Shown: piece by piece, positions 1-54,810 of the stretch
Layout: each line of letters opens with the position of its first letter
Numbering within the stretch: the stretch's first letter is position 1
Assembly: GCA_043228905.1 (NCBI GenBank)
Contig: JBHGNT010000005.1
Span: 3,658,001-3,722,000, forward strand
DNA: 64,000 bases
Source: Azolla caroliniana
Taxonomy: Eukaryota > Plantae > Polypodiophyta
Direction: 5' to 3'
Notes under the pieces: generated by a model
Database searches by the model: none
Seen by the model: only the letters and a program-made list of their open reading frames with translations
What the model was told of the DNA's origin: nothing
Translations under genes and position numbers: made by a program

Positions 1-3000
1 AACCAATACAGCAGATTTCTCACATATGACTTCCCAATCAAGTTTGTGAGATCCAAGGCTCATAAAAGGTTTCCCTTTTGAACAAATTCTGAGATAAATT
101 TAAGAGAGAACCGATTGTTTTTAGAGTTTTGAAGAGCAAATGCTGATTAGTAAAGTAAGAAAATTTTATATTTTTATCTTTTTGAAAGGATGCTTCTTTT
201 AACAGACATGTCGAAGAGGATATACTTGAGTAGATGCATTGAGAACAAATAGAAGAAATGGAGAGCTCCAATGGGTGATCTTGAATTTTGGTTACAGATA
301 AAAGATTGTAGGACCTAGGTTCACCAATGATGTAAATGGTGAAACTAACAATGGCAAACATTGTGTGTCTACCAACCATGTTTCATGTTGGATATCTTTA
401 TCATTCAAATGTTTTTATTTTAAAATAGCAACCATCATAACGGGATGCTGTTTTAACTCTTTTATGACAATTATATATTAACCATTTTCTTCTTTCCTTT
501 ATTACTAGCTCCGCAGAATTCTTGATAACATTTCATGACCAGTGTGAAACAACAGAAGACCAACTGTCCTGAGAGCAGATGAGGTTAAGAAAGCTAGAAA
601 TAAATTCCTGTGTACTAAAGCTCTAAACTCAAAAGTTACTTTAGAGTTAGCAGTTAGACCCCACATATAGTCAGTTAAAGGCTATAAACACTAAGATTTG
701 TTTTTTACAAGGTGATAACATGAACAACACTTGCCTTATTCAGAAAACCCTCTTTTAATGAAGAACTGGACATTCAACTGTGGGGCTAATTTAGAGTTAG
801 TTTTAGTGTGTTGAAATTTGTAGGTCTAAATAGATAGTTGAAATTTATAGATCTACTGGCTTATTAGTTCTCTTTGCCTACTATACTGCGTGAAGAATAC
901 CTTGGAGGCTCTACAGGTGGATTTCCAATTATTCCCTCGATATGTAAAATAAAGGTCTTAATAAAGGAGTTGAATTTATTTCAGTAACAGGGTTCCAACC
1001 ACTTGTTTCTCTGAATTCTGCTATACTCTTCACATCCCAGTTACTTTGGTGGTGGTTCAGCACAAGAGGCTATGGCTGGAATTCCTATAGGCCAAGGAAG
1101 TATTTGGGACAATGCAAAACGGCTTGGTCAATCCTATATACAAAACTATTGGCCTGCAATCTGATTTGCAAGGGCCTCTTGTAGATATTGGACACTCTAA
1201 TATGGCTGGAAGAACAATTTTTGGAAGGCTCTTGTGGAAATATTGGAGCTCTTCAACCATATGTGGGACTTTGGTGGTGGTTCAGCACGAGAGGCTATGG
1301 CTGGAATTCCTATAGGCCAAGGAAGTATTTGGAACAATGCAAAACGGCTTGGTCAATCCTATATACAAAACTATTAGCCTGCAATCTGGTTTGCAAGGGC
1401 CTCTTGTAGATATTGGACACTCTAATATGGCTGGAAGAACAATTTTTGGAAGGCTCTTGTGGAAATATTGGAGTTCTAATATGACTGGAAGATTATATGA
1501 CCACTTGATACATTTAGGAAAAGTAAAGGATTATGAGGAAGGTGGGGCAGGGTTTCAGGTTTAGGAAGTTTGAAACTCTTAGCATTACAAGATAAACTAA
1601 AGGCTCTAGCTTTACACAATCTGATGAGGAATATAACGAAAGAAAACTTCACAGAATCCTCAAACGTGCTGAACAGTAACGTGTCATTGGGGTGGACCCA
1701 CATTGTTGATTCAGTATCAATCACTTCATGTGTTCAAATCAACATGCTTTCTTGTTAACATTGGCCTGGCACAAGTTGGATGCATGCAATCATCAAAATT
1801 CTCGAATAGGATATAAAAGAAAGTCCAATGGAAAGATGCACAGAATCCTCAAAAGTGTCGAAGGGCAATGTGTCATAGGAGTCATAGGGGTGGACCCACA
1901 GATTTGATTCAATCAATTGCTTCAAGGGTTGAATTCAACATGCTTTCTCGTTGACATTGGCCTGGCACAAGTTGGATCCATGCAATCATCAAAATTCTCG
2001 AATAGAATCAAAAAGAAAGTCCAATGGAAAGATGCACAGAATCCTGAAAAGTGCCGAAGGGCAATGTATCATAGGGTTGGACCCACAGTGTTGATTCAAT
2101 ATCAATCGCTTCATGGGTTGAATTCAGAACTGAAATAACTATGTTCTTTAAGAAAAAGGAACAACCTTCTTCAAAAAACCGATAGAAAAGTTGTGCTATC
2201 TCATAAAACCAAAAAAGAATATGAAAAGTTCTGCCAGAGATAATCCATAGGGATCTCTCCTGGGGTTCAAAAAATGATTTCGAGAATACTGGTATCAGAA
2301 TATATGCATTTGTGCATAAGACTTTGCTTGAAAGCACCGTCACTGGTGTTGGTTCCCAGCATCTCACAAACGATTCCAACAATCGGATGTCAAGATGGGC
2401 TTAGATAGAATGGAACATGCAAATAAAAGCAATCACCAAGTACAACATCTCAAAAAGCCACAGAATACCCATCCCCATAGCCCAAACGATGATACATGTT
2501 CTTGTCTCTACCTACACTCACTTCTTGCTGTGTTTAGACATGTTTTGGCTTTTTGACCTTTATCATCTTATTGTTGTGCCTACTTAGATTCATGTAGAGC
2601 ATATAATTATATATCGATGTATGACACGTCTATATGTATGTACATGTGTGTATGAATGCATACATACATATATGTATGTCTGCATGCATGCACAGATGGA
2701 TAAATGCATGAATGTATGTATATATGTGAGTTTTCAATATGTTGTTTCCAACTTAACTCCATCTCCATTTCTTTTGAAATGACAATTACTCATGCATTTT
2801 CCATTCATTCTCTAACTTTCTTCCATAATAGAAGCGGTGACAAGCTCAAGCTGTTATATAGGCCATCCCTAAGCCAAAGTATCCTCTTCACATCCTTAGG
2901 AAAGAGAATGTCGAACAAAACAACATAAAGTAGGCCAATGACCTCAAGCAAGGATGGCACAACCTCAGCAAAATCCACCATCATCAGGTGAAGAAATGTA

Positions 3001-5426
3001 TTTATTCAATACCAATTTAACCAACACAACAGATTTAGACCTTTCATGGTACCTAGATATCAGCGCTACTCATCACATGGCATTCGACAAAATGTACCTA
3101 ACACAATACAAAGAGCTTACCACACCCCTAGATGTCCACCTTGGAGATAACAGCATCAGACATGCCCAAGGATATGGCACCCTCACCTTTAGTCTATTCA
3201 ACAACAATCATCTTCACATTCATAGAGTTTACTTTGTACCAGGACTCACAAAGAAACTCTTATCAGTAAGTCAAGCAACAGAATGAAACTCACACTCACC
3301 TTCAAAGGTAATTCTTGTCTCTTCCAATCTCAACTCTCAAATGGCACATCATATACAATTCCTTGTTTCAAAACACAAAACCTATGCCCAATTCACATCA
3401 CACCCATCAACATATCAAATGCCTCTCGTCAAATCAATGACACTGGAATTCAAAACACCCTCAAATGGCATCTTAGGTTAGGTCAACCACATCTTCAAGC
3501 CCTTCATAAGATCCGAACACGCAACCTTGCCAGAGGAATAATAGGTCCTCTCACCCAACTATCCTTTTGTGAAGGTTGCCTCTTCGGAAAAATGACCTCC
3601 AATCCATATCCTCGTTCAACCCAATACACAACAAATCCCCTCCAACTCATCCACACAGATCTATGTGGACCAATGCCGACTCCTTCCCTCACCGGAGATC
3701 TTTACTTTCTCACATTTATCAATGACTACACCATCATCACTTTCCTCAAAAAGAAATCTGATGCCCTATCCCATTTCTTAGCCTACAAAAATCTTGTTGA
3801 AAACCAATTAAATCAAAAAATCAAAATCCTACCAAGTGATAATGGAGGCGAATTCACTTCGAACGAATTCGATAACATACTACAATCACAAGGAATCCTT
3901 CATCAGACAACCATACCACATCATCCTCAACAAAATAGAAAAGCCAAGAGAGAGAATAGAACACTCATGGATGCTGCTGGATTAATGCTAAAAACTGCAA
4001 ACCTCCCAAACTCTTTTTGAGAAGAAGCCGTGGCAACAGCCTACTATTTACAAAATAGATTGCCTACGACAACACTCAGCTCTCAAACACCATTCGAAAA
4101 ATGGTCAGGTATCAAACCCGATCTCCCTCACCTAAAGATCTTTGGCAGTACAGCATACTCATATGTACCCAATGCAACCAAAAATAAACTAGAAGATCAG
4201 GCAACCAAACAAATTTTCATCGGCTATGGTGACTCTTTCGGCAAGAAAGGATATCACCTTTACAATCCAATCACATGTAAGTTCCAATTTAGTAGAAGTT
4301 GCATCTTTGATGAAACTTCTATCTTGTCACCACCACCCCGAGTCACTTCTCTTGAACCACCTAATCATAACTCAGAAAACCTAACCCTTGATGAATATGA
4401 ATCTTTAGATGATATATTAGACATAATGAGTCACATAACTAATACTAATAACAAACAACCCAGACCACATTTACCTTCTCTACAACCCTTTCAAGAACCT
4501 ACTCCAATGCTTACTCCTCAAATACCCATCCCCCCACAACTTTCCTCCAAACCCATTCCAACTCACACACCACCAAGCTCCTCAATACAAAGCTATCAAA
4601 ATTCTCCACCCAAACACAAATCTGTTCCACGCACTTCAGCAAGGCTAAATGAACCAAAGAAGATCAACCAATCCTCGTCATCAATTATACTCCTACAAAT
4701 CAACAAGTTGCTGATTTTCTCACAAAAGCAACAATGGAATCATGACAATAATATAAGGTTTATGTTCTAGAATTTCCTAGAAATTCACATAAAAGCAACA
4801 ATAGTAAAAGGTACCATGATTTATTTCAATAGAAATTAGCAAGTTTTACCTTTGTACCAAGTGCAGATCCAGGAAACGTCATGGATGATGCAAATTCATT
4901 AGGACCTGTAAGGTTTTCAACCATAAAAAAGGAAACGGCTTAAACCTAAGAACTATGAGGAAGATATGTATGATATTATAACACCTCATGAAACTAGTAT
5001 GCATGGAGTGCACCATAAATATGCATTATAACAAAGTTAATTTCATCATATCATATGATGACATCAATGTATGTGCATATTTCCACCTGCGCATGGCAAG
5101 GAAGATAAATATTCTTCAGTAGATGTGAACCTGTCAGGATCGGCATTCAGATCAGAGTCCGTTGCGAGGACACAGAGAGAAAGAGTAGATGATGTGAAGG
5201 AGGTAGGAAGACATGTGTTAGCACGGTGCAGCTGTGGTGCAGGCAGGCATGGAGAAGTAGACGCAGCACAACGGCACAACAACCAACGATGTCTCATAGT
5301 CGTCGTCATGAGACGTGCTCTAATGTCAGCATCTTTCAAGGGGTAAGGTTTGATGGCAGCGGCGCCAACCATGAGGCAGGGGTAGACAGCAGCAGCAGCA
5401 GCAGCAGCCAGGGAGAATGGATGCAT
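1..5426 (-). CDS. Spliced gene of unknown product with an organellar transit-peptide-like N-terminus; continues off the left window edge
   Basis: Phase-compatible exons 5426-5087 ([10 protein letters not shown]...LSSLPCA, phase 1), 4905-4850 ([19 protein letters not shown], phase 0), 935-901 ([11 protein letters not shown], phase 2) and 88-<1 ([30 protein letters not shown]), all with GT donors and AG acceptors. The N-terminus is Ala/Ser/Thr/Arg-rich. No family recognised, and extra exons (e.g. about 483-568) are possible. Confidence 0.55.
1043..1478 (+). repeat. Near-perfect 225-bp tandem duplication of a LINE-like fragment
   Basis: ctttggtggtggttcagcac...gtggaaatattggag occurs at about 1043 and 1268, and ORFs 1112 and 1337 encode almost identical peptides. 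One frame reads ...[11 protein letters not shown]...[14 protein letters not shown], reminiscent of the post-RT region of plant LINE ORF2. Confidence 0.8.
1648..2127 (+). repeat. About 190-195-bp tandem repeat, about 2.5 copies
   Basis: cacagaatcct(c/g)aaa...ggacccaca...gattcaatc...caacatgcttt...cattggcctggcacaagttgga recurs at about 1649, 1839 and 2035. Confidence 0.85.
2954..4770 (+). mobile_element. Degenerate Ty1/copia LTR-retrotransposon fragment (protease, GAG-pre-integrase, integrase; RT/RNaseH missing)
   Basis: Protease motif [11 protein letters not shown]...VHLGDNS...[20 protein letters not shown] zinc finger WHLRLGQP...CEGCLFGK. Integrase IHTDLCGP / YFLTFIND / SDNGGEF / [11 protein letters not shown], then [10 protein letters not shown]...FIGY...KGYHLYNP. 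Frameshift at about 3283 and TGG>TGA stop at 4018-4020. Confidence 0.95.
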
Positions 5427-11130: not shown

Positions 11131-12556
11131 CCTAAACTACATACCAATAAGTGTATTGGACTCATGGCATCACAATCTCCAAACAATTGACATAAACCAC
11201 CTCAACCATGGTTTGGCCTAATCAGTATAATCTTTCTCTCTCTTTGTGTGGAATTCAAGATGTTAAATAGACATATTTTTAGTATCCACAAGAGACTTGA
11301 TTGCGATATATGGGGATATATAGGATTCTTTTTAATATCCACAAAGATTGATTGCCATTTAATATCCACAAAGATTGATTGCCATGTGTAATGGGGGGGG
11401 GGGGGGGGAGAGAGAGAAACTTGCGAGATGCCGAAATTGCCCTACGAGATAAATCATGACTACAAATATGTGTTGCTTTTATCGTCTACCAGTGGCTGAA
11501 ATTTGCCCATGAGATAAATCATGATCACAATATATGAGTTGCTATAGTTTACTTGTACGGCTTGGAAAATATCAATATTTCGTAAAGATTCATGGTGATG
11601 ATCTTAATGCTTGAGGTGGCTTTACAAACAATACCCGGTCATTGGGATGGTTTTGCAAGTCTCGTGGATGTGAAATAACTCTTTTGTATGGGTACACGAC
11701 GTCCAATGTTGATCGGTATGGTGGAATGAGAGTATGACAAAGTTAAGGTTATCAACCTACATACATCTCGATGCTTTTTTAGCAACTCGAGCACAATGAT
11801 CAATGTTTTTTCACGATTCCATGAGGGTAAGACCCATGAGCCTCGCGTCCCGGAACATGCATTTTGCCCAAGGAAAACGTCGATTTTGCAGTTAGCCTAA
11901 GAAAATAAAAACAAAGCAAGCCGGCAACAAAGCGCACGTTCGTTTTCATACACATAGCATAGCGGCATATATAAAGATGATGTGTGTAGTAGCCTAGTAG
12001 GCATATGGGACGATGCAAAATCCATGGATTTCGGAGGATGAAACAACACGGAAGAAAAGAAGGTGCGACGGAGCGCACGCGATATACGTAACTTTTACGA
12101 GGAGGAGTTGTGGGTGTACGTACTATGCGAGGTCAGTGTCCATAATGTGGAAGGGAGGGGACCTATCCATTCCACATAAACATAAACATCTACATATTAA
12201 GTACATATACATATTGTTATAATACACGTTCGTCAATGGACGCAACGTGGAACCCATTCTTTTCTATACACACAGAACACACACACACACACACACACAC
12301 AGAGGGAGGGAGGGAGCTTGTCTTCCCTAGAGTGGAGCAGAAGCAGTATAAATTCAATGGACCATGATATGCCCCCACCCAAGGCAAAACAAAACAGAAA
12401 GAAACAAAGACAGAGAAGAGAGACAGAAACCCTTAGCTTTCTGGTTCACCTAAAAAGCAAGATTGCTTTCTTGCTCACATTACAATTGCCCTGTCAGGAT
12501 TAAAAAGAACCACGAGAGCAGGTGTGCAGGAGTGCAGTAGCGGTAAGAGGAGGACC

Positions 12557-12594
<38 letters not shown>

Positions 12595-12595
12595 C

Positions 12596-14038
12596 ATGGC
12601 ACCAGCAAGAAGAGAGGTGGAGAGGAATGAGGCGGAGCTGGAGCAGCATTATTGCGGCGGCGGCGGCGGCGGCGAGGATGATGAGCAGCGGCGGGCCATC
12701 ACGATGTATCAAGTGGCGGTGGTGGGCCTGGGGATGATAGGCTCGGCGGCGGCGCGCCATCTGTCAGCAATGGCCGGCGGCTCCTCCTCCTCTGTGGTGG
12801 CCATCGGCCCAGCCGAGCCGGAGACGGCCAATTGGGCGGAGCACCGCGGCCCATTCGCTTCCCACTACGACCAAGGCCGCCTCACCCGAATCTCTGACCC
12901 CGACCCCGTGTGGGCGAGGCTGGCCACCAACTCCATAGCTCGCTACCGCGGCCTGCAGGAGTCGACGGGCATCCGCTTCCACTACCCCGTCGGCTGCCTG
13001 CGCATCGAGCATGCGCGCAGCGATGGCCTCCTTTCATCCTTCCACATTGGCAGGCAGTGCGGCGCTGCGCAGTCCAAGCTCCTGCAAGACGCGGCCGCCA
13101 TGAACCGATCCTTCCCTTTCTTCTCCTTCCGGGAGGGCGACGCCGCCATCATGGAGGGCGGCGACGCAGGCTACATCAACCCGCGGAGCATGGTGGCGGC
13201 GCAGCTCAAGGCGGCGGAGGGCAATGGCGCCTTCATCCTGCGGGAGGCGGTGAAGGAGATCATCCCCATAGGGAGCGCGGTGAAGATCGTGACGGAGCAG
13301 GGGAAGGCGGTGTGGGCGAGGAGAGTGCTGGTGTGCGCCGGCTCTTATTCTACCTTCCTGCTGCCACCGGAATCGGCACCGGCACCGGCACCTGCACCGT
13401 CCAGCGGTGGTGTGAAACCGAGGCGGCTGGCTCGGGGGACATCGGTCTTGGATCTGCGGACCTATGCACGGACCGTGGTGCTCGCGGAGGTGGATGGGGA
13501 GGAGGAGGAGGAGCGGCTTGCGGGGATGCCCACCTTCATTTGCCAGCCGCGGGACAATGCGGTCCTCGATTGGGTGTACGGTTGCCCGCCCATCAAATAC
13601 CCCGACGGACGGACAATGCTCAAGATCGGCGGGACGGCATGGGCCGCCACTGAATTGGGCGGCAGCGAGTCCAAATTGGGCGCCTGGTTCCGGAAGGACG
13701 GCGGGAGCAGCGAGGAGGCGGCCGCCCTCGAGAAGATGCTGGCCCAGCTAATGCCGAAGCTCCGTGTCCGGCCTGGCGGCATCGCGACCAAGCCGTGCGC
13801 GGTGTCCTTCACGGCTCACGGCCGGCCCTACATCGATGCCGTGGATGGGGATCGGACGGCGGCCACGGCCCGCGTGTTCGTGGCAGCGGGCGGGTGCGGT
13901 GCAGCCGCCAAGTCTTCGGACGAGATCGGGAGGCTGGCAGCTCTGCTCGTGTGGAACGGCCGGTGGGGTTGCTCGGATTTGGACCCGAAGCTTTTCCGGG
14001 CAGTATTCAAGGCAGCAGTGGGTAGTGGGGAGTTATGA
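12596..14038 (+). CDS. Intronless FAD-dependent oxidoreductase of the sarcosine oxidase / DAO superfamily (480 aa from the ATG at 12596)
   Basis: Rossmann motif VAVVGLGMIGSAAARHL, FASHYDQGRLTR, GYINPRSMVAAQ, VLVCAGSYS, YPDGRTMLKIGG, PCAVSFTAHGRPYID and GGCGAAAKSSDEIGRLAA. Uninterrupted GC-rich ORF with good start context (gccATGG) after a (GA)n leader. Confidence 0.93.
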   Translation: MAPARREVERNEAELEQHYCGGGGGGEDDEQRRAITMYQVAVVGLGMIGSAAARHLSAMAGGSSSSVVAIGPAEPETANWAEHRGPFASHYDQGRLTRISDPDPVWARLATNSIARYRGLQESTGIRFHYPVGCLRIEHARSDGLLSSFHIGRQCGAAQSKLLQDAAAMNRSFPFFSFREGDAAIMEGGDAGYINPRSMVAAQLKAAEGNGAFILREAVKEIIPIGSAVKIVTEQGKAVWARRVLVCAGSYSTFLLPPESAPAPAPAPSSGGVKPRRLARGTSVLDLRTYARTVVLAEVDGEEEEERLAGMPTFICQPRDNAVLDWVYGCPPIKYPDGRTMLKIGGTAWAATELGGSESKLGAWFRKDGGSSEEAAALEKMLAQLMPKLRVRPGGIATKPCAVSFTAHGRPYIDAVDGDRTAATARVFVAAGGCGAAAKSSDEIGRLAALLVWNGRWGCSDLDPKLFRAVFKAAVGSGEL

Positions 14039-15699
14039 GGAGAGAGGCCAGCTATGGCTTCATCTCTTCTAAGAGCTGAAGTCTGCACTAGTAACAAAAA
14101 CAAAACAAAAAGAAGACACTGCAAGACCAGGACCAAGACCAAGACCAAGACCAAATGGCATTCAAACTAATTACACTAAACTATGGTAGTAGAGTTATGT
14201 AGTTAGTATAGTGGTGGTGGAGTCCTTTCTTTGTGATGTTTTTTTCTTTCTTTTGTTCCTTTTGGATTGGAAGGGCAGGGGAGGGGGGTTAATTATGCTT
14301 CTCGAGTTCTTTCAACCATTGCCTTGGTCTCTAGTTTTTTTCATGGCACTCCACCTCAAGCATTTAACCAACCAATTCTCCCTCATGCAATTCATTCATT
14401 CCTCTTTGTGGAAGCCAATCTCTTCTTCTTTGGTATAGATAGATACCGAAGATCCTCCTACATTTGGCACCCGCTGCCATGTTACCAATGCTTCATCCCC
14501 CGCCTTTTTCCTCAACACCTCGTTTCCATCTCCATTTTCTCAATTGTTCCGAATATATACATGAAAGTTTTAACATTACACACAAACACCGCATTGTTGG
14601 TCTCTGCTATAAATTTCTACACCCTTTACCAATGCGAAAAACAATGGGATTTGCTTTGGGCCTTGTTTGTTTGCTTGCTTGCTTCTTAGCTCGTTGACAT
14701 TGTGGTATTTAATTGCAATGTAAACACACTCGATTGTAATTCATAGATGATTTTGTCAATAGAGAAGCTTTTATTTTAGATGAGGTTTTAGTTTGGTTTG
14801 TTTCTTGGTTGACCATCTCGCTTCCTCTTCTTGTGTGCATGGAGTGTTTTGACCCTTACAAATAACATTCTTAGGAGTGGGGAGTGTTTTATCATCTGAA
14901 GAAGCAAGTCTCTAAGTAGAGAGGGAGGGGTTTGACCCATCAAAAAGCAAATCTTATTGTATCCCATTGTGCGAGATTGCGAGGGATTTTGACAAAAAAA
15001 TACAAATAGCAACCCATCACAAAGTCGTGTAAATGGAAAGATCGAGAAGGGCATGAGTTCCTCGTGTTTTGCAATCTTCCTTTTTCTTTTCTTTGGTTCC
15101 TCCTCGCTCAAAGTTGTAACGAATGGCTCTATAATGTTGAAACATATTATCTTCTTATAAAGGTGTTGTAGTAGTCTCATCTTACAGACACTATTCTACC
15201 ATTCTAATAGTTACAAGTTGTAATGCAAGTAACCAACCAGTCTTTGTGGAAGTATGATTTGATTGGACCCATTTCCTGTGGTTTGGGAAGGAAGTAACTA
15301 AATGATACAAATTTTTTATCTACAATAAATAAGCATTTCTCCATCAAAGTGCGGAACTACTTATGAAGAACCCATTATATGATGGCTCTTTCATTGTGTT
15401 CCACCCATACATGCTCTAAATCACACACACATTCTATTCAAGAACATTCAAAGAAATATGTATAATGAAGATGTTGCTTTTTTACAAGTTAGTTGTGTCC
15501 CAATATGTTTCGACATGTAAACACCCATGGATGGCCACCTTTCCTCTATTATGCATGTGTGTTGATGTTCTACCACCGCTACAAGCTCCTAAAGTACCTT
15601 TTATGTACTGAGTCCTCTTTCGATTATGATCTATAATACCTCGTGTATGTACAAGACCTATTGTTATTTTAATTTACCTATAGTTTTTGCCTTCAATGT

Positions 15700-17065
15700 T
15701 TTCCAAGAAACCATATATTTTTATGGCCAATGTTAACGACCATGAGGCCAAAATATCATATAAAGCTCTCTAATAATATATTTTACATACTAGAATCGAG
15801 GAAGAATCAAAATAAAGCATATGGAACCAACTAAGCATAATCAAGTTCCAATGATGCCTTTAATATTATTCCCTATTAGTGATTTTAAATCAAAAGTAGC
15901 TTAATGCATGAAACAATAAACAAGACACCTAAATTGTAAGATCTCCATAATTGTGCATAATATCAACCGCCCAAGTTCTAACCATAATCGATCCACTTTT
16001 ATTGGGTTGTGACACGCCCAACTGGAATGACTATGTTAGCTTCATGCATTTATAGTTTTATTTACTATAGTATATTTGTGTTTTCTAATTAAAGTGGTAA
16101 AGCGTCCACCCTATATACAAGATCTCTCTTGAAGTGTAGGTAGCTATTTCTTGTAATCCTTGGTATTGTAAGTAATAGGTGGCTCCTCCTCTTAATATGC
16201 TCTTTCATTATTAAATTTAAACCCCACCTAGTAGCATTATCGGTTTACAAGAAATGTGCCATTTCAACAAGCTTAAACCTAGAAGCATGACTTTTTTCAC
16301 TTGTTGCATTAAATTATACTAGCAATGTGTTTTCTTTGAAAGGTTGCATGTCAAATTTTCAATTTGTCTCCTAGTTAAAGACTAACTAGCCACATAGCTC
16401 TTTGGATGCAATCTAGGCGGCCCAATCAATGAAATTCATTACATCTCTCCCAAAAGTCGTGTTGTTGATTATTGATACATTCACTTGTGATGGGTTCTAA
16501 GTTCCAGCATGAGAATGTGAGCTATTGATTGATTGATGATGTCTAAATTGTTCACAAACATTTGGACAATGCTTAACTACTTTTATCTACCTTCAAGCAT
16601 GAATACACTTGCATCGTTTCTTATGATGAAACCACTAAAGTTCGAGAAAAAGGCTTCTCTATACATTTTGACACGTCAAAACCTTTTCAAGAATATATTT
16701 GTGGTTGTTGAAGCTCCAACGAAAAAAGCTTGTGTCGGCTCATTAGTTAGCACCTTTAAATTTGGTCTCTTAATAACCATTGTCCCACTGGAAAAGCTGG
16801 TCGCAACATGATTGGGATCTACAAAGTTAATGATTGTTTGACAACGAACTTCCTTTAAAAATAAAATAAAATGGAGGATTATTTCTAGATATCGAATTAG
16901 CTGCATTTCCTTGACAATATGTAGCAAATGTGGTTTTCTGTATGAAAACGAGTAAATGTTGTTTCCCGGTCAAGATTTGCGATAGTTGCTTAAGTTGGTC
17001 GAGTTCATTACCATTATTAGTAAATATGAACACATGTTTTGAGAAAAAACTTGACCATTTCAAAT
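15700..17065 (-). mobile_element. Decayed hAT-family transposase relic
   Basis: KHVFIFTNNG...LTGKQHLLVFIQKTTFATYC resembles the hAT FIYNH...TxGKELLRPAxTRFATNF stretch. Many stops and frameshifts. Confidence 0.35.
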
Positions 17066-19890
17066 AAACATATGTAACTAAAAATTATCATTATTAATAT
17101 ATAATCACATGATAATGCAAAACATTACATTCATATGTAAAACATAATCTATATTACGAAGGAGAGTGGTGAAGCGATTACATGAGTTTGCTCGTGGAGA
17201 ATGAAATGTTACCATGAGTTACAAAAAACATTTAACCATCGACCATAGAGAGAGATTCTTAAAGATATTGGACAACTACAAGGAACCAAAGAAGGCCTAA
17301 ATGTAATTGTCGGTGTAATGTTGATGAGTAAAATGTAATGACTAATAATGGAACATTGATTCTTTACCCTCGGCGTAATTGTAAAGGTAAAAAGCGAGTA
17401 CGAATAACCGTTGTAAACAAAAGAGGTGGCCTCGCAGTTATCAATGAGCTGTCAAGGTTATTGCAAAGAGCCCAAAAGGGTCAAGAAAGACCGGGCTGAA
17501 AAGAACTATGAAGGTAGCTACAATGTTGAAGGTTTCTTCTTTTCCCTGAGCCAAGTAGTGCAATCCATGATAGGATACTCGAGCTTTTCTAGTTCTTCGA
17601 GGGGGGGGGGGGGGGGGGGGTGTATGGTGAATCTGTGGCATAGCTGTCTCGAGGTGTCTAGCAAGGGATTTCGAAAGGGGAGAATTCGATATCTTGGGTA
17701 AGATGAAATAATTAAGAAAAGAAAAGGAAAAGAAATGTAGGAGACATATATATATGTACAAAATATATGTATATGGAGGCGAGGTAGGGGGGGCCACGCA
17801 TACTTTCCGATCTCTCTCTTTGTGTGTCTTTTTATTTTAATTTATTTACACATATGTCCACGTTCATGGTGATAGTTCCATTATCATCATCATCATCATC
17901 ATCATCATTACATCATCATCATTATGATGATGATGATGATGATCATCATCATCATCTCACTAGCCAAGGGAAGCAAGCGATGGATAAATTTGATTGATGG
18001 TCCATTCCTTCCATCTAACTACATATATATTATATGTACTATAATTTATTATGGATGGTCTTTCAGATTTCTTCTTTCCTCCCAAAACAAAAAGAAAAGA
18101 GAAGTGAATGAGAGAGAGAGAGAGAGAGAGAGAGTGTGTGTGTGTGTGTGCGTGCGTGTGGGGGGCAGTGAGCAGTATGCAGGCAACACGTCCCACCCTG
18201 ACGCGCTCCACACGCAGGAGCACCACGACGACCCGCCAGCCACCATTTTCCTCTTTTCTTCTTCAGATACCTCACAGTCACCATCCAAAATTCAAATCCA
18301 TCTCATTCGGAATTCCCCTTCAGGAAGAAATGGATGGATACCTGCATTATTTATCCACGTGCATCATCGTCATCTTCTTCTTCTTCTTCCTAATCCTCTC
18401 CTAGGGCGTGGGGATCGGATCGGATCCAGTCAGTTAGCCCCCCCCCCCTCCCTGTTCTCTGTATGTCTTGTCTAATATATGTAATCAATGCGCCTGCCTG
18501 CAGGCAAAACACACTCCAGGCGAGCGCGCGGCACACGACGCAGGAGGGAGGGAGTCCCAAGTCAAATTTCTCCCAAACCGCATATTCCTTCCTGCAAATA
18601 CATATTCCTCTCCTCTCCTCTCCTTCTCGGTCTTCGTCTCTCTGTCTGCCTTCATCACCACGTAAACTCTACTACATTCTTTAATGTGCTTTTGGCAGCT
18701 CCTTAACCAACACCCCATTTTTACAAATACAAATACAATATAATATACACCACCATTTGACACAATTCCCCTTTCTTTCCCATTCCCTATGTCCACATGT
18801 CCACACAATCACACACACATGCATATTATTCTATAGTTCCTCTTCATAGATCTTCTTCCGCACACCGCATCTTCCAAGGACACGTCCAACTTCTCACCCG
18901 TAGCCTCCTCATTTAATATCGACACTTCTCTTCTACTTTTGAAACGCTCTCTTCCCTGTGTGTGTTGCTATACGAGGAGGAGCCATCAATGTACCCAACC
19001 ATCAATTCCACTTTTTGGCTCCATTTTGAACTAATGCCAATGCTTTGAACGATTCCTTTTGCATTTCTGCCAATATATAATGATTCCTTGCCCATATGTA
19101 ACCCTTGTGCTCACAACATCTTCACCCTATTCAAAACTAGGTTCACATTGACATTGTATTTATGTTGCCTCATGTGTATGTCTACTCTATGTCCCTTTCC
19201 TCTCATTCTCATTTTCAGCCCCCCCCCCCCCCCCTTCCCTTTCTTTTATGTGAATGACAAATTATATTAGGAAATTAACTACTCATATTGGCACCATGGT
19301 TGACAAAGCACCATGTTGAACTCATTATTTATGTTCAACTATATTGCACTCTATATGTAAATACTTAAATACCATTACTTTGTAAAAATAGTTCAATAGA
19401 AGCACTTGGCTGAGGAACACCATTATAGCTTCCCCTAAAAAGGTCCCCTTCCCAAGTGAAGTTCAATTAGAATGCACATATCCTCCATAGATTTCTAGAA
19501 TGTTGTAAATTATTTGGACATGCGACAACCATATGAGAACTAAGAATTCTTTGGACAAGCTTTTATTCCAATAGCATATGGACTAATTTTTATACTCCAG
19601 ACTAACTTTACGCTATTGGACATCTAAAATCTCGTAAAAAAATTCTTTGAACATGCAATGATCATCTGCTGCTTTGAAGATGGATATCTCCAGCCAGCAG
19701 AATTTTCATTAACTTGCACAAAGTCTGACTTGAGAGACTTAATTGATCAAATGTTTATGGAAGATACAAAGATATTTAATTGTAAACGTTCACATATATT
19801 TCAAGTTAACAGTCATAAACTGATTCAAACTTTAAATCGAATATTCATATGCAGGTGAAAACTTTCTCTGCCTTGAAGAAAATATCAATC

Positions 19891-36658: not shown

Positions 36659-39600
36659 ATGGACCAGTGGAACTATGGTCGGGCTTCTCAGCAACAGGTA
36701 TGCTTCTCTCTCCCCCCCCCCCTTTCCGTGCGCATGTCGTAAATCAAGAAACACCAAGCCTCATATGATGCCATGTTGTTATTACGAATCTGATTATCAA
36801 ATTCACACACCGTCCGCAATATATTCACCACCCGTATAAAAATCTGTATTTTGACAAGTACGACGAGATCTCATGGATTGTAGGGTTTAGAGATTAGGTT
36901 TTAGTTTTTAAGGTTTAGGGTATGCTCCATGGAATTGCTGGGCCAGAGTGCATGCTTGGAAAGAATTTTTGACTCCTTGTGTGTGCTCATAGAACCATTG
37001 TCATAGTGCGTGTTTAGTGACAGCGCATGGCCTATTACGAACAGTTGGAGTGTATACTTGGAGGGAGCTCTTTGGCCACGGTTTATACTTGGAGGTGGCC
37101 CTTGACTTGTTTTGTGCGTATCTTGTCATAGTGTATGCTTTGTGGCAGCTCGTTAAGTGTGTACTTGGCAAGAGCTGTTGCGTTATATTTTATTCTTTAA
37201 GACAGCTATTTGGCGATGATATATTAGCCAAAGTGTATAACTGGAGAGAACTCTTAGGCCATAGTATATTTCTGGAGAGGGTATGAGTCAATGGCAGTCA
37301 TTGGATTGGATATACTTAGAAATGGCACATAACTGATGAGCTATTGGGGCATTGTGTATGTGGTTGGTTATAATGTATACTTTGTGAGAGCTCTTAGAGT
37401 TGTAGTATATGCGTAGAAAGTACACACAGCTGTTGGAGCTCGTGAGCCATTGTATACACTCGGTGAGAGCTGTTTGGCGATACAGAAGAAGGCACACACA
37501 CTTATGGAAGATCGTGAGTTCTGGTGTATTTTGTGAGAGCACTTTGGCTATAGTTTATATGTGGTGGGTTACATACTTGGCGAGAGCTGTTGGGTCATTA
37601 TGTAAACTCAGAGGGCATGCATCATGGGTGTCATAGGACCATAGTGTGTGCTTCTCGAGAGCTCTTGGGTCATAGTGTATATTCTTGGTGTGGATATTGG
37701 TTGATAGTGTTTGTTCATAGGGGCATCTAACTGTGGAGCCTAGTGCCTATATATACTTAGTGGGAGCGCTTAATATATGGTGTTTACTCGGTACAAAACA
37801 TTGGACAATAATGAATGCTTGTTGACAGGGTTCAAACTTCAGGCCATATTGTATATCTGGTGAGGGAATCCACTGACTCCCAGTGTGAGCTGTTGGGTAA
37901 TACTGTACACTTAGAGCGCTCTTGGGTTATAATATATACCGGACAAGAAAGTTTGTGTCCATATTACCAACTTGGGGACAGCATGCACCCTGAGGAGCTC
38001 TTGGGTGAAACTGTATATGTGGTGAGAGATCTTGGGTCATACCGCACTCTGTACACTCAAGCTCTTGGGTCATAATTTATACATGGCGATAGCTTTTGGG
38101 CCATATTTCTTCTCGGAGAGGCATGTATATTGTACCCATGGGAGATCCTGAGTCATAATGTATACCTGGTGAGAGCTCCTAGGTCATAGCGCAACTCGGT
38201 GAGAGCTTGTGATCCATGGTCTAGTCTTGACCAGAGGTTTTCGGTTATAGTAACTAGAGTGTTTGGGCCGTATAGTGTACTTTTTGGACCCATGCAATAA
38301 TGTGTTTCATGAGAAAGCATATATATATGGGAGCAGGCCTGCACCACTGCGTCATTTTTGATTTTGTGTAGACAGTAAATTTAGTATTTCTTGCTTCCTA
38401 ATTTTCTGCAATGTTCTCAGGGTGGGTATCAATCAGGTTCATTCGGACCTCAGGCAGGGGCTGCATCTTCTGGTGCTTCTCAATATGGTTTTTCCCAGCC
38501 TAACTATGGCCAAGGTTATGGTCAGCAGGTGTGACTATGTAGTCATTCTATATATTTCAGATATTCAGAGCTTTATCTCCTGTATGTGTTTTCTTTGTGT
38601 GACACCTTCAGATAACATTAAGCTGTTATGGTTTTCTTAGATTCTTGGAAAATCTGATGATTATCAAGGATCTTCTGGGATCGGTTCCTCCATGGGAATA
38701 TATAATTTGGATTCTAAGTATTCAAGTTCAGGTTACGGTTCAGCAGCGGCATCTACCACGCCTTTTACTCAGAAGGTAGATAAACTTGGTGGAAGTCAAA
38801 ATAACACATTTTATTAGGATTTTTCTTAAAGTCTCAGTTCACTTATCTCGCTGTTGATGTGCAGAGTGATCCTTTGAAGCGTTATTCTGAATCTCAGGTA
38901 AGGAGGTTATTTTTTGTTAGTTGGTTCAGATTGGAATAGTATCAATATCTACTAATCACTGTTGCAATCTATTTGCCATGCCACTCCCTGCTTGAACAAG
39001 CTGGATCAGGTACTGGAGAAACTAGAGTGCTCTATTCATCAACTTTGTGGCTTAATTTATGATTTCTGTTCTCGTTTGATATACTGTATTGCAGCAAGCT
39101 ATCCGTCAGCAGCAGTTATTGCAATCTGCTTTACGACAAGGAGCTGCACCATCTGGACTTGATAGTGGAGTGAGGTACTAACACCAGACTCTCTTCTTAT
39201 AAACGTTGCAATGGTTGGTAATTCAGCCTACCTCAAAATCTTTCTCAGGTCTCAAGTGGACTATCTCTCAGCTGGAAGAAATTCAGCCTTACCAGCTGCT
39301 GTTGGTGGAGGCTACGGTGGAGGAAGGGAACTCTTGGGCAGTACATATAGGCCAGAGTCAGAGGTTGCGCTTTTGGGAAGCCAGTCAAGTATAGCATCTC
39401 GAGGTGTTTTGCCATTTCCCTCTCAAGCAGCTGATCCATTGGGATCTCTTACAGGGGCGAGGGGCATTTTGGGACCTATGTATCCTCCTGCGTCAGGATA
39501 TTCTTCTATGGAGATTGGATCAGCACGTAGTGGTATCAGTGCCATGTCAGATTTTGCAGGCATAGGCTCTTCACGCTATGATGATCTTCTTGAGGATCGA

Positions 39601-42600
39601 ATGGCTCTGCGTTATGATTACGAGAGGCGAGAGGACGATAGAGTAAGAGAGAGGGATCGGTCAAGAGAGCGTGATAGGTTTCGTGATCGGGAGAGAGATC
39701 GTGACAGGGAGAGATCACGTGAAAGAGAACGTGAGCGTGAGCGTGAACGTGAACGGCTGAGAGAGAAAGAACGGGCATGGGAAAGAGAGCGAGTTCGAGA
39801 AAGAGAGCGAGTTCGAGAGAAAGAGCAGCGAGATAGGGAGAGAGAGGTGCGGAGGCGAGAAAGAACACCACCGAGACCAGTTGCTCCTCCTCCTAGGCGA
39901 GATGAAAAGATTATTAGGAAAGCTTCTCCTCCACCACCAAGGTATGTGAGATGTCGGGACAACTCGTATATGTGTACATGGATGTTATTAGCAACTATTT
40001 CTGTTTCTATATTGTAGGAGTTTTGTAATTCCATTACTGTTTATATGATGTTAGCTTGGAGTTCCCGAAATGATGAATTTGTCTGTTAGCATTAGTTATC
40101 GAGGACTCAGTTCTAGTATCTCCTTCAGAGGCTTGCTTATATTGAAATTGAAGTTTTTGAGACTTCATGGATTTTCTGACACAAACGATGCATCTTCAAT
40201 CATCACAAGGAAGCATCATGTTTAGGAATTGTCAACATTTATGCATTTGGTTGTGTTCAAAACAGTTTTATGCTTGTCATTGGTTATACTTAGTTTCAGG
40301 TTTATTTGTTGTAAGTAAATATTCAATTCAAGGTTCGCTAGGAGTCCAGCATTGCGATTTGACTAGATGATGATCATGCCATTTGTTTTATGTGGTAACT
40401 GTATGTCGTAGAAAGTAGAATGAATGTGCTCAGTTATCCAGAATCACGTGTCTGGCTAATCTTGATATCATTCCTCTGGATAAATGACATGTTGGCGATA
40501 AATTCTTTGCATGTTTTCAGAAAATTTAGGTTGCTTTTAATTATACTGTCTTTCAATATGCTATTTATTGTTAATTGGTAATGGATTTATGTGTGTTAGT
40601 AGGTTTTCATCACCAATCAAACCTAGGAAGCCAGAATATTTGTGCAAGGTGAGTTGTGAGTAACTATGATTTCAAAGAGTTGGCTCCCTTTCACAAGATC
40701 TATGGAATTTACCTTTTAGTTACAATTCATGAAGGTGGAACCCTTTAGCCTAGTAGAGGCAGAGAGGGACTTGCTGTCTTTGATTCGGCGTTACCCAAAG
40801 TTGTTTGTGGCTGCTGATTTTTCAAAGGTGCGCTTCTATTCAAAGTTTGATTGTTTAATAGTCGCATCCCTCTATGATGAAACAGAGTTATCAAATAAAA
40901 TATTAAGACAAATTATAAAATAGAATTAAGATATAACGTCTTATTGTATGTTCAAAAGAGAAATTTGTTTGGTTAGTGCTCAAAGTTTGATTGTTTAACT
41001 GTTGCATCCCACTATTATGGATCGGAATTATCAAATAAATACTTAAGGAATATAATCTATAGAATAAAGGTAGAACTTTTCACTTTACGCTATAAATAGA
41101 AATTTGATGGGTTAATGCTCTTAAACTTCATAGTGCTCATAAAGTCCTATTCTTTTGAGATAATAAAATCTAAATTTTAGTGAGATTTGAAAATGTGTCA
41201 GGCAATGTTTCAAGAGATTTTAAACTTCAGGATGAATCTACTTTTAACAAGCAGTGGGGTGTGGCTTGAAGGTCTAGCATGGAAGTTAATTATCCTTCTG
41301 TCACTTGCAGGCCGTAACATGCTGGAGAGAAACAAGCTCTGAAATTTCTTTGAATCACCCTGTCAGGTATGTAGGCTCAAATACCATACATTATGAAATG
41401 TACCTACAGCAAACCGTACCTAGCTGTTTAGACATAAATAAAAGAATGCGATTCATCAGCATGGGCTTGTATGAATGGCTATTGCTCAGAAGAGCTGAGG
41501 AAGCTAGATATGGTCCCATTTTGTTATTGATATAGTATCTATGCTGACACCACTAGTCAGCATTTTAGTGTTCGTTGTCTCAATGACGAAAGATCTGGCC
41601 TGCGATGCAACAGCTTCGAGATTGATGCTGTAGAAGCAGAGGAAGAGAGCGAAGCAAAGGAGGGTGCTGTGAAGTCACCAGAAGGAGCTGACACATTGAA
41701 GGGGAGCATTACTTGGACTGTTAAGGTAACCTGTGGAGAAATGCTGATGAGCTTCGAGTGTCAGATGAGTCAACTATAGTTAGCCGAATTGCATGGAATT
41801 GGAAAAGCTTAAAAATATTCAAACTCCCACCTTCGCCTGCATGGAATCATAAAAGCATGAAAATTCCGGAATTCCCAACTTTGACTACATGGATTGAAAA
41901 ATATTGAAATCCCCAACAACCTCAACCACATGGAATTCGGAAAGCTTGGAAATTCTTCAAAGGCCAGCTTCAATGGAAGGAACAACAGCTGGCTTTTTTC
42001 ATTTTCTTGCTTATATACTGCACAATGAGTTCTTGTGCAATGCCCTTGCTTGCTGCATCCTGGCGAAATAAATAGTAGTATAGAAGGATCTCTGTGGATA
42101 CTCTCTGATCTAAAGCATTATTTTTATTGATCAGCGATGCCCAGCTTTTTGCTCGTTTGTGCTTCCTTGGTTCTGTCACACTCTAAATTATGGTTTGATG
42201 TGCACGTAGTTGATCATGGCACCCCTTGTCGATGCTCATAGAGCCTTAGCATTTTTATGATAACAATATAAACTGTTCCAATACAGAGAATAAATTATGG
42301 CCAAACAAGCTACTTTGCCTTTGAGTCCTTCAATCTTTATTCCCTGTTATATGCTGTTCAAGTATTTCTAGAGTTCTCCTATCTTTCTTATCTGCAAAAT
42401 ATACGGTCATGTGCAGATTTGGACGATTCAGTTAATTTCCTGCACTTTTGTATTTGTCCTGGGGAGCAGGTAATGCTGATGAGTGGCATGAGTGACGACA
42501 ATGTGAAGGAGTTACTTTCTGATTCTGAAGACAGACCTCTGCATATCCACAACATTTTGAAGTTTGCGGTACTAAGAAAAGAACGAAGTGCATTAATGGC

Positions 42601-52378: not shown

Positions 52379-54770
52379 TTAGTCAGACAGCAGTGAAAGG
52401 TTGTCTGCCTCTATACCCTCAGATTTTTCAAGTAAGTTATCTTCCTCTTGCATGTCTTCTTGTTGCATTAATGTTATATCTTCCAAATCAGGATCTGCAT
52501 CTTGGTCATCATTGTCTTCAAGTACACTTACACCTATCAGCTGTTCTTGGCTCTTTAACATCTCATCTTCTTGCAATTCCTGAATATGCAATAGTTCTTC
52601 TTCCTGCTGTTGAAGAAATTTTAGTTTCACTTTTGTTTCAGCATTCTCACAAATGCAGGCAGAGGGATTTTCGAAAAATTGCCCCCTGCCAGGCTTCATT
52701 TCATTAGGTTCACCCATGAAGCCTCTTTGGACTCTTTGCAACTTCAAAGCAAATACTTCCCAAGTCATATTAGGCTTTGCAAGGAAAAGACTCCCCAGTT
52801 TTTTTGCATTGGGCCTTATGGTGCGTTTATGGTCAAAATAGCGCCTGTAGAACCAAGTTGACACATAAGCAAACAAGGAACCAAAATCTATTCAAACCAT
52901 TACAATCTTAGCATAGATGAAAACATAAATAAACTCAGGTGGTATAGTTAAGTGAATGCAATAACAAAGAATACTACCTACGCCCTGCGAGGATACGTGC
53001 CATATTTCCATTATTATTGGCTATAAATACATTGCTTTCATCGCTCACAATAAAATCAATTGCTGCCATACGTGAGGAAAATGGAGCAAAATGCTCCAGC
53101 TCTCCTTCAAATGCTAATGTATCCTTTGTGTGATAGTTTGGAAACATTTGTTTAAGAGGCGCCAGTGTGTCTTCCCCACCATATACCTCCCCTGAAGCAA
53201 CATATAGGTGGCAATCACTTCCAAAACCTAATGCTCTGAGCATGATCCCCACTTCTTCTGGGGTCAGGGGGCATTTTCCATTTCTCCTCTCTTTTTCAGG
53301 GTTCCAATGCTGACAAAAGAATAGTCAAATAACATGGAGAAATTAAGTGCAAACTTCTGGTACACGAAATACATAGGACCCATAAAATAGTATCCTTGAT
53401 TACATGAAGGGTCTTCCACCGTTTCCGCAGCAGCCCTAACTCTCTTCTTTCCTTATCCCCACCTCCATAATAGCAACCAGAGAATGCAAGCATGTCAGAT
53501 TCAAACCTATGGTCACCCAAACACATCATCAGATGTTGAAATGCAAATTTTCAATCTTGCCATGATCTGGAAAATAAAAGAGTGCTGTACCTCAAATGAA
53601 GTGCAATATATTGATTACTTTTTTGCCTCAACCTTTCAACTAATACCTGACCCATTGTTTCCACATCTTTAGTGAACCTAAGAGCATGGTAATTCACTCG
53701 GCAGCGAAGCTTTTGTAGTTCACTTTCAAGCCTATTAGAAAGCCTGTAATCAAACTTCCCCAAGCGAAGAGCCTACATGAATTTACCCACAAATTGTTGA
53801 TTAAGAACTTCATCAAAATATATTCTAGATCATAGGGAGATATTCAAATATCCTCAAGAGTGGAAAATATGACCTATGGCTAAAGTAAGGCATTTCTACA
53901 TAGTGTTGAGTAGTAATCTCAAGGTTCCAGAATTTGACAAATGATCAATGCAATTGAATGTCATTAGAGACAGATAGAAGGATAACGTCTACGTGCCTAT
54001 GCAACAAAATAAAAGCTATATCTTTCCTAAAATCCATGTTTTTTATCTTAATATATGCACTGCAATGACTCTTGAGAGAGAGAGTTAGAAAAAATTTCAT
54101 AGTTGCAATGCACGCCAATGACGTCTGCCATACGTTGATTGAAGGTCAAGCTTGGTTAATTGTGAGGGTATCGCTTTCATGGCACGTTACCTGATGCATA
54201 CAATTGTATGCATTGAGTATTGACGCAGATTGGCACTCGCATTTTCTATTCTATGCAAAAGTTTCTTTGGCTGTCACTAATGGGCTTTAAAATGCTGACA
54301 CATTTCAAAAAGGACATTTTTCGCTGTGAAGTAGTTGACGAGGATGCCTTACATGCCCAGTTGCTATAATCATTTGAGTTGTGTTATGCCCCAAATTTGG
54401 ACATCATTAACTTGGAAACTGGTCATCTTTGTGTGGGTTTTCATTAAGGGATCCAGAGGTTTACCATCCCTATCATATAAGATTGTGTTTGACTACCTTA
54501 GACATTGGAGTTTATGGTAGAATTGGAATATGAGAAATGGGTTCTCGTTTGATTGTCTCTTGGAGTAACACAACAGATAAATATGCTTAAACCAAAATTG
54601 ATGTTGCAGTTTTCATGATTGTGCTCTGCAGGCACCTTGTCCTGAGAGGAGCTGCATTTACATCAGCTAACCTTACAGCACCAGAGGGTTTACCCCGTCA
54701 TAAAATCCTCTTTATTGTCATAGGGACAGCAAGGTTTTTTTGCATTGTCCTGTTTTAATATGCATAATGC

Positions 54771-54810
<40 letters not shown>

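What the first reader, a model, noticed from the sequence alone, without database searches (positions are those of the whole stretch)
12596..14038. Bacterial-type, intronless, GC-rich flavin amine oxidase embedded in a plant chromosome: horizontal gene transfer candidate
Seen: a single-exon 480-aa ORF that is visibly far more GC-rich (roughly two-thirds by eye, with mostly G/C third positions) than the AT-rich, multi-intron neighbours. It has host-style flanks: a (CA)n/(GA)n leader, a gccATGG start and an AT-rich 3' region. Established knowledge: canonical plant sarcosine/pipecolate oxidases carry GSSHGxSR and a C-terminal peroxisomal PTS1. This protein instead has FASHYDQGRLTRISDPDPVWARLAxxSIARY, YPDGxxxLKIGG and AAKSSDEIGRL, and it ends in -GEL (no PTS1). 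From recall, those motifs typify a mainly alphaproteobacterial, largely uncharacterised subfamily. Inference: a laterally acquired and domesticated enzyme giving the plant a new N-methyl-amino-acid or amine oxidation activity.
Basis: partly seen in the sequence, partly recalled or inferred. Interest (0 to 1): 0.85.

Follow-up and report, generated by a model that had tools for sequence, protein, structure and literature searches.

The report
Ancient Chloroflexota-derived oxidase in a fern
This is a real, intron-free plant gene, likely from a fern, for a sarcosine-oxidase-like flavin enzyme of untested substrate; it is shared with mosses, liverworts, a clubmoss and a sister alga, and was likely taken from Chloroflexota bacteria by their common ancestor, so it is one more ancient gene transfer rather than a recent one.

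Summary
The ORF is real: 12596-14038, 480 aa, GC 0.67 (GC3 0.80) against 0.385 for the window. Contigs from independent runs join it to its 3' plant flank. It is not a recent or lineage-specific transfer. Orthologs occur in ferns, Selaginella, liverworts, a moss and the zygnematophyte Spirogloea. They form one supported clade whose branching broadly follows the species tree and which nests among Chloroflexota (nearest named: Litorilinea), not Alphaproteobacteria. Invertebrate, chlorophyte and dinoflagellate homologs form a separate clade; AU tests reject joining the two (p 0.002 and 0.010). No named seed-plant hit was seen. The fold is closest to MSOX/MTOX. The flavin-linking Cys, O2-activating Lys and carboxylate Arg/Lys pair are kept; His269, Tyr317, His345 and Tyr55 are not. 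It likely oxidatively dealkylates an N-substituted amino acid other than plain sarcosine, making H2O2 (untested). The high GC cannot be donor residue. This scan already noted the same family in a peat moss (e1-7303636), and bulk screens list about 1,800 streptophyte HGT families whose tables I could not see. Verdict: genuine ancient HGT of a known kind, enzyme uncharacterised.

The parts
12596..14038 (+). Single-exon CDS, 480 aa, MSOX-like flavin amino-acid oxidase (Pfam DAO, residues 40-449)
12725..12742 (+). FAD-binding GxGxxG (residues 44-49)
12878..12889 (+). Arg95 to Arg98, aligned to MSOX Arg49 (flavin si face) and Arg52 (substrate carboxylate)
13622..13624 (+). Lys343, aligned to MSOX Lys265 (O2 activation); invariant in 412 of 412 rows
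13796..13798 (+). Cys401, aligned to MSOX Cys315 (covalent FAD link, role recalled); invariant in 412 of 412 rows
13910..13912 (+). Lys439, aligned to MSOX Lys348 (substrate carboxylate)
13376..13441 (+). Lineage-specific Pro/Ala/Gly-rich in-frame insert (residues 261-282), low model confidence
12277..12595 (+). Host-type upstream region with (CA)n and (GA)n runs ending in gcc before the ATG; likely 5' leader
   Evidence: partial cover by two small runs
14039..14624 (+). AT-rich 3' region, likely 3' UTR; three small runs stop at 14581-14624 while a DNA run goes on (weak hint)

Best explanation
[quoted passage not shown] Shown: the ORF, its link to the 3' plant flank, the plant clade, its nesting among Chloroflexota, the fold match and the conserved catalytic positions. 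Inferred history: one transfer before the split of Spirogloea and embryophytes, vertical descent through bryophytes, lycophytes and ferns, loss in seed plants. Inferred chemistry: FAD is bound covalently through Cys401; Arg98 and Lys439 hold the substrate carboxylate; the flavin oxidises the C-N bond of a secondary amine to an imine, which hydrolyses to the free amino acid plus an aldehyde; Lys343 helps O2 reoxidise the flavin to give H2O2. Loss of the His269, Tyr317, His345 and Tyr55 side chains points to a different and probably bulkier substrate than sarcosine, used in scavenging or damage clearance. The fern copy is likely cytosolic; a few plant orthologs have gained a PTS1. Odds: ancient Chloroflexota origin about 0.85; oxidase acting on an N-substituted amino acid about 0.75; substrate other than sarcosine as the main one about 0.6.
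For: Orthologs: Adiantum (58%), Pteridium, Psilotum, Selaginella, Marchantia, Riccia, Calypogeia, Ceratodon, Ceratopteris fragment, Spirogloea. Trees: 412-row FastTree, plant clade of 41 rows at 0.98; IQ-TREE LG+G4, 41 rows: plant clade 98/95, with the Litorilinea group 99/97, inside a Chloroflexota group 99/98; mixture-model quick trees: plant clade 99, with the Litorilinea group 95. Rooted on E. coli SolA, all labelled loci in the nine smallest enclosing clades that hold any are Chloroflexota or unassigned. AU tests reject one eukaryote clade: p 0.0019, p 0.0096 with animal-clade rows added. Integration: contigs X1 12698-14148 and X2 13878-17500 cross the stop codon into AT-rich flank. All 6 CDS substitutions shown are synonymous. 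Fold: model pLDDT 85.6; top Foldseek hits MSOX, E 4e-29; VIA Z 41.5, rmsd 2.7, 366 aligned to T. roseum sarcosine oxidase and Z 41.3, rmsd 2.6, 363 aligned to MTOX. Residues: Arg95, Arg98, Tyr328, Lys343, Cys401, Gly435, Lys439 present in 40-41 of 41 plant rows. Roles of Arg52/Lys348 from PMC12582975 (passages), Arg49/Lys265 from PMC5459902 (passages), family chemistry from PMC6222107 (passages). PTS1-like ends in 4 of 44 plant rows and 5 of 9 animal-clade rows, 0 of 260 other rows, as expected of an H2O2 producer.
Against: The algal anchor is one sequence, inside a fused 1763-aa Spirogloea gene model; in one tree its position within the plant clade was unresolved. The exact sister group moves: Litorilinea group, unresolved among Chloroflexota. 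Both careful mixture-model searches did not finish; quick trees are quoted. Most close bacterial rows are unnamed metagenomic proteins. No contig bridges the 5' junction, which is broken by repeats at 12551-12694. Seed-plant absence rests on listed rows only (best 120 of 941, best 120 of 1167, all 91 short hits); proteins longer than 849 aa were not searched there. No activity data exist here; identity to MSOX is about 20%, and 22 mostly Chloroflexota neighbourhoods show no shared pathway. Only part of the variant tables was shown (40 of 214 rows).
Confidence: 0.75

Rival explanations
1. Recent transfer into this plant lineage, with the high GC left over from an alphaproteobacterial donor.
For: GC3 0.80 against 0.30-0.47 for ten other stretches; no introns; Rhizobiaceae homologs exist at 35-41% identity.
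Against: Nearest relatives are fern proteins at 58-60%; the protein sits inside a fern subclade at 100/100; bacterial DNA similarity is patchy only; bacterial homologs' GC3 ranges 0.48-0.84 in 12 loci, so GC names no donor.
Confidence: 0.02
2. Old eukaryotic gene inherited vertically, with losses; the bacterial nesting is a tree artefact.
For: Homologs in Pycnococcus, Bryopsis, a dinoflagellate, Saccoglossus and Ruditapes, and a mostly molluscan Atlas cluster show a wide eukaryotic range.
Against: Those form their own clade (100/97) on the alphaproteobacterial side; holding all eukaryote rows together is rejected, p-AU 0.0019 and 0.0096. Spirogloea's copy is 55% identical to Litorilinea's.
Confidence: 0.07
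3. Bacterial contamination or misassembly.
For: Sharp GC step; the 5' junction is not bridged by any listed contig.
Against: Contigs of two separate studies cross from CDS into the 3' flank; the protein is nested among fern orthologs; none of 3449 ORFs from the bacterial loci matched the 6.6 kb upstream or 6 kb downstream.
Confidence: 0.01
4. Same history, but the enzyme is a plain sarcosine or pipecolate oxidase, a second copy of the activity that canonical plant SOX/PIPOX provides.
For: Closest folds are MSOX; Tyr254, Arg52 and Lys348 equivalents are kept; sources label some members 'sarcosine oxidase' automatically.
Against: Far below NCBIfam cut-offs (37 of 480 bits for soxA_mon; 84 of 257 for MTOX); His269 is Thr, Tyr317 Val, His345 Ala, Tyr55 has no counterpart, and an Asp101 and Trp106 are nearly invariant instead.
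Confidence: 0.25
5. Transfer ran from an early streptophyte into Chloroflexota.
For: The nearest Chloroflexota copies have short branches and are as similar to the fern protein (46%) as liverwort copies are.
Against: With SolA as root the plant clade is the last of 19 nested clades, with Chloroflexota diversity outside it.
Confidence: 0.02

Closest known systems
Monomeric sarcosine oxidase (MSOX, Bacillus; PDB 1el5, 2gb0; Thermomicrobium 7exs)
   Same: Fold (TM 0.84 by target; Z 41.5); equivalents of Arg49, Arg52, Tyr254, Lys265, Cys315, Gly344, Lys348.
   Different: 19-25% identity; His45 is Tyr, His269 Thr, Tyr317 Val, His345 Ala, Met245 Ile, Tyr55 unmatched; below the family cut-off.
N-methyl-L-tryptophan oxidase (MTOX/SolA, PDB 2uzz) and NikD
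   Same: Fold (Z 41.3 and 39.0); best NCBIfam hit is the MTOX model.
   Different: 84 of 257 bits; SolA lies on a very long branch outside the whole subfamily.
Canonical plant sarcosine/pipecolate oxidase (SOX/PIPOX)
   Same: Same superfamily (PF01266); knowledge recalled, no sequence fetched.
Ancient bacteria-to-streptophyte transfers: GRAS and PYL (Cheng et al. 2019, as summarised in PMC12448838), fern Tma12 (PMC6786969), 1,809 HGT families of Dong et al. 2025 (PMC12513842)
   Same: GRAS and PYL map to the same node, the ancestor of Zygnematophyceae and land plants (passages). Tma12 is also closest to Chloroflexi (passages). HGT genes tend to have fewer introns (passages).
   Different: A small, apparently single- or two-copy metabolic gene, not seen in seed plants, with no known phenotype. 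Whether it is in the published lists could not be checked.
Earlier scan note e1-7303636 (peat-moss gene)
   Same: Same family, same plant range, same Chloroflexota reading.
   Different: Another genome; an unchecked AI note, seen after my own trees were built.

Membership tests
MSOX-type covalent-flavin amino-acid oxidases (MSOX, MTOX, PIPOX, NikD) | Two-domain DAO fold closest to MSOX/MTOX | tested here: met
MSOX-type covalent-flavin amino-acid oxidases (MSOX, MTOX, PIPOX, NikD) | Cys at the flavin-attachment position (MSOX Cys315; role recalled) | tested here: met
   Cys401, 412 of 412 rows; by sequence alignment
MSOX-type covalent-flavin amino-acid oxidases (MSOX, MTOX, PIPOX, NikD) | Arg49 and Lys265 equivalents (flavin si face, O2 activation) | tested here: met
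   Arg95 409 of 412, Lys343 412 of 412
MSOX-type covalent-flavin amino-acid oxidases (MSOX, MTOX, PIPOX, NikD) | Arg52 and Lys348 carboxylate pair | tested here: met
   Arg98 391 of 412, Lys439 397 of 412
MSOX-type covalent-flavin amino-acid oxidases (MSOX, MTOX, PIPOX, NikD) | Actual covalent FAD and H2O2-forming oxidation of a secondary amine | not testable with these tools
   needs recombinant protein
Monomeric sarcosine oxidase proper (TIGR01377) or MTOX proper (NF008425) | Score above the curated cut-off | tested here: not met
   36.8 of 479.65 and 84.3 of 257 bits
Monomeric sarcosine oxidase proper (TIGR01377) or MTOX proper (NF008425) | Pocket residues Tyr55, Met245, His269 (PMC12582975) and Tyr317, His345 (recalled) | tested here: not met
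   gap, Ile315, Thr347, Val403, Ala436; mapping by profile alignment, not by superposed coordinates
Canonical plant SOX/PIPOX | Orthology to the seed-plant gene in a tree | not tested
   no canonical plant sequence was fetched
Bacteria-to-plant HGT gene | Plant clade nested in a bacterial donor group with support; eukaryote monophyly rejected | tested here: met
Bacteria-to-plant HGT gene | Lies among host genes and is physically joined to host DNA | tested here: met
   3' junction bridged, 5' junction not bridged
Bacteria-to-plant HGT gene | Recent, lineage-restricted acquisition with donor-like composition | tested here: not met
Bacteria-to-plant HGT gene | Expressed as polyadenylated RNA in this host | tested here: inconclusive
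   one search gives a weak hint only; RNA labels are guesses

The most novel reading that the evidence does not exclude
An uncharacterised, covalently flavinylated amino-acid oxidase subfamily defines an unrecognised N-alkyl-amino-acid breakdown step that eukaryotes hold in two independent versions: an older one in invertebrates (often with a PTS1), chlorophytes and dinoflagellates, and a Chloroflexota-derived one that replaced it in the ancestor of Zygnematophyceae and land plants, gained peroxisome tags again in some plants, was kept across seed-free plants and was lost in seed plants.
Probability: 0.3. Interest if true: 0.55.

Novelty: new member of a known kind. Interest (0 to 1): 0.3.

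Why it matters
It adds a clean, well-supported case of a metabolic gene entering the green lineage from Chloroflexota at the same node as GRAS and PYL, just before land plants arose, and apparently dropped by seed plants. A Marchantia ortholog (Mp2g16140) makes the function directly testable, and the answer would also name the activity of a large unannotated subfamily in Rhizobiaceae, Chloroflexota and marine invertebrates. It is not surprising in kind: genome-wide screens report about 1,800 such families, this one may already be a row in them, and this scan has noted the family before in a moss.

Tried and rejected
No whole genome is held for this window, so copy number, presence of a canonical SOX/PIPOX and the genome-wide GC3 spread of intronless genes could not be examined. 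Sequencing runs: no RNA holder listed on record; this is no evidence either way. Gene neighbourhoods as a guide to substrate: 122 neighbours from 22 of the 80 loci showed no shared pathway; clustering of all 3449 ORFs found shared neighbours mainly in Rhizobiaceae, where the gene sits between a lytic transglycosylase and mraZ, which I read as synteny among kin, not function. Plasmid copies in Prescottella, Runella and Cupriavidus gave no common context. A single-sequence PDB search found only one weak hit; the profile search was needed. ESM Atlas gave only DAO clusters. Careful mixture-model trees did not finish. Literature: ten searches found no paper on this family in plants; the Marchantia and Spirogloea gene ids gave 0 papers. 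PMC9667741 lists a Chlorella 'SoxA' with a Sphaerobacter best hit (passages); whether it is this subfamily was not tested. Ma et al. 2022 is not held. The one held supplement of Dong et al. 2025 (22,685 characters) and four of PMC11135702 had no match; Dong's Supplementary Data 8-11, the HGT tables, were not available and bear directly on novelty. Rejected: GC as evidence for transfer; an alphaproteobacterial donor; residues 261-282 as an intron (in frame, 66 bases, no joint listed).

Full report
Observation. GC is 0.668 and GC3 0.80, against 0.385 for the window and GC3 0.30-0.47 in ten other stretches that I chose; it is the GC peak of the window. CpG observed/expected is 0.95 against 0.51 for the window, which suggests an unmethylated gene body (inference). 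The microsatellite leader, gccATGG and the three quoted motifs are present; GSSHGxSR and a PTS1 are absent. Pfam gives DAO over residues 40-449; NCBIfam gives only sub-threshold hits, best MTOX at 84 of 257 bits. Of 16 other window stretches scanned, 6 had Pfam hits, among them DBC1, O-FucT and three retroelement segments, so the setting is eukaryotic.

Integration. Eleven of 16 listed runs hold the stretch or part of it. Contigs from two studies cross the stop codon into AT-rich flank: X1 12698-14148 and X2 13878-17500. No listed contig bridges the 5' side, where repeats at 12551-12694 break short-read contigs. The six CDS substitutions shown (40 of 214 rows were shown) are all synonymous. 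Three small runs from three studies, two guessed to be RNA, cover only about 12270-14624 and stop at 14581, 14610 and 14624, while DNA run X3 continues; this is a weak hint of a transcript. Psilotum and Pteridium orthologs carry transcript-assembly names. Four runs also hold a second copy, about 88-91% alike, with 13 silent and 15 replaced codons among those shown: a paralog or homeolog.

Relatives. The best hits are plant proteins: Adiantum at 58%, then Psilotum, Riccia, Marchantia, Calypogeia, Selaginella and Pteridium. A plant profile adds Ceratodon, the short-protein search adds a Ceratopteris fragment, and the representative search adds a Spirogloea gene model whose last 400 or so residues match. 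The best named bacterial hit is Litorilinea aerophila at 46%. No named seed-plant protein appears in the best 120 of 941, the best 120 of 1167, or all 91 short hits; 14 of the top 22 rows are unnamed, and longer proteins were not searched there. No named hit came from Physcomitrium, hornworts, Chara or Klebsormidium either, so those are open. Of the 80 genome loci kept out of 357, 79 gave a scored ORF: 28 Chloroflexota, 40 Pseudomonadota, the rest scattered.

Phylogeny. Of 420 proteins, 412 were long enough for the first tree. The 41 plant rows form one clade (0.98) with Spirogloea first, then liverworts with mosses, Selaginella, Psilotum and ferns; this protein lies among the ferns. The clade sits inside Chloroflexota-labelled groups. 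IQ-TREE on 41 chosen rows gives plants 98/95, plants with the Litorilinea group 99/97, and the enclosing Chloroflexota group 99/98. Mixture-model quick trees on 75 and 31 rows keep the plant clade at 99; the 31-row tree keeps the Litorilinea link at 95, the 75-row tree leaves the sister open. With animal-clade rows added the plant clade is 99/97, but its sister and Spirogloea's position are open. Rooting on E. coli SolA leaves the plants deeply nested. Pycnococcus, Bryopsis and a dinoflagellate, with a clade holding Saccoglossus and Ruditapes fragments, form a second eukaryotic clade (100/97) on the alphaproteobacterial side. Holding all eukaryote rows together is rejected, p-AU 0.0019 and 0.0096 under LG+G4. 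The simplest reading is one transfer from Chloroflexota to the ancestor of Zygnematophyceae and land plants, then vertical descent and loss in seed plants. The host is read as a leptosporangiate fern from this tree alone.

GC. Since the gene has been in plants since before mosses and ferns split, donor composition would long since have been overwritten (inference). DNA similarity to the bacterial loci is limited to patches of 43-289 bases, and bacterial GC3 spans 0.48-0.84 in 12 loci. The high GC is better read as a host property of a short, intronless, probably unmethylated gene; I could not test this genome-wide.

Mechanism. The model (pLDDT 85.6) matches MSOX best, with T. roseum sarcosine oxidase and MTOX tied at Z 41 and NikD at 39. 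A profile alignment to Bacillus MSOX maps Arg49, Arg52, Tyr254, Lys265, Cys315, Gly344 and Lys348 to Arg95, Arg98, Tyr328, Lys343, Cys401, Gly435 and Lys439; Lys343 and Cys401 are invariant in 412 of 412 rows. Arg52 and Lys348 bind the substrate carboxylate (PMC12582975, passages); Arg49 and Lys265 line the oxygen site (PMC5459902, passages); the family oxidises N-methyl groups to imines that hydrolyse to amine and formaldehyde (PMC6222107, passages). The role of Cys315 as the FAD anchor is recalled. The pocket differs: His269 is Thr347, Tyr317 Val403, His345 Ala436, Met245 Ile315, Tyr55 is unmatched, and Asp101 and Trp106 are nearly invariant. I therefore predict a covalently flavinylated, H2O2-forming oxidase for an N-substituted amino acid, probably bulkier than sarcosine. 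PTS1-like ends in 4 of 44 plant rows and 5 of 9 animal-clade rows, but 0 of 260 other rows, fit an H2O2 producer; this copy has none. Bacterial neighbourhoods give no pathway, which fits a stand-alone scavenging or clean-up enzyme but names no substrate.

Comparison and novelty. It works like MSOX/MTOX by fold and catalytic residues but is not a member of MSOX proper, MTOX proper or, by motif, canonical plant SOX/PIPOX. As a transfer it matches a known class: GRAS and PYL at the same node (PMC12448838, passages), Tma12 near Chloroflexi (PMC6786969, passages), and 1,809 HGT families in 49 streptophytes (PMC12513842, passages). Ten literature searches found no account of this family in plants, but the published HGT tables were not visible, so it may already be listed.

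Verdict. Observation confirmed; interpretation partly supported. A genuine, ancient bacterial acquisition with an unknown substrate; new member of a known kind; interest 0.3.

Noticed in passing
runs X3, X6, X7, X8 laid on window 12709-14014; protein P0170: A second copy about 88-91% alike at DNA level lies in four runs, and P0170 is 90% identical over the last 121 residues: a paralog or homeolog in this or related hosts.
   Followed up: partly
window 2942-4770 (+): Copia-type retroelement remnant (Pol_BBD, gag_pre-integrase, rve, SH3 domains), broken into separate frames.
   Followed up: partly
window 39166-44031 (+) and 52379-57120 (-): Multi-exon host genes: a DBC1-domain protein with Arg/Glu- and Lys/Asp-rich exons (CCAR1-like, recalled) and an O-fucosyltransferase.
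   Followed up: partly
window 14122-14154: A short (GACCAA)n repeat in the 3' region draws very high contig depth, so it is a widespread repeat in this genome.
   Followed up: no
proteins P0194, P0205, P0231, P0243, P0252, P0263, P0278, P0345, P0395: A clade holding Saccoglossus and Ruditapes fragments, 5 of 9 rows ending SKL or AKL: an apparently unstudied peroxisomal oxidase of marine invertebrates; 7 of the 9 rows are unnamed.
   Followed up: partly
proteins P0187, P0208: Bacterial members fused to what look like a cupin and a class I aminoacyl-tRNA-synthetase-like domain (read by eye, not scanned): possibly a biosynthetic cluster that could hint at the chemistry.
   Followed up: no
protein P0241 (Bryopsis): Oxidase followed by a C-terminal domain that looks like a SAM methyltransferase (by eye); real fusion or merged gene model not tested.
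   Followed up: no
loci L008, L009, L031, L037, L050, L051, L053, L059, L068, L082: Tandem pairs of the gene in several Rhizobiaceae, just upstream of the RNase P RNA/mraZ region.
   Followed up: partly
proteins P0143 (Spirogloea) and P0335 (Ceratopteris): Gene models look faulty: Spirogloea's oxidase is fused behind an unrelated 1350-residue protein, and Ceratopteris's model holds only the last 172 residues. Such models could hide the family from automated screens.
   Followed up: no
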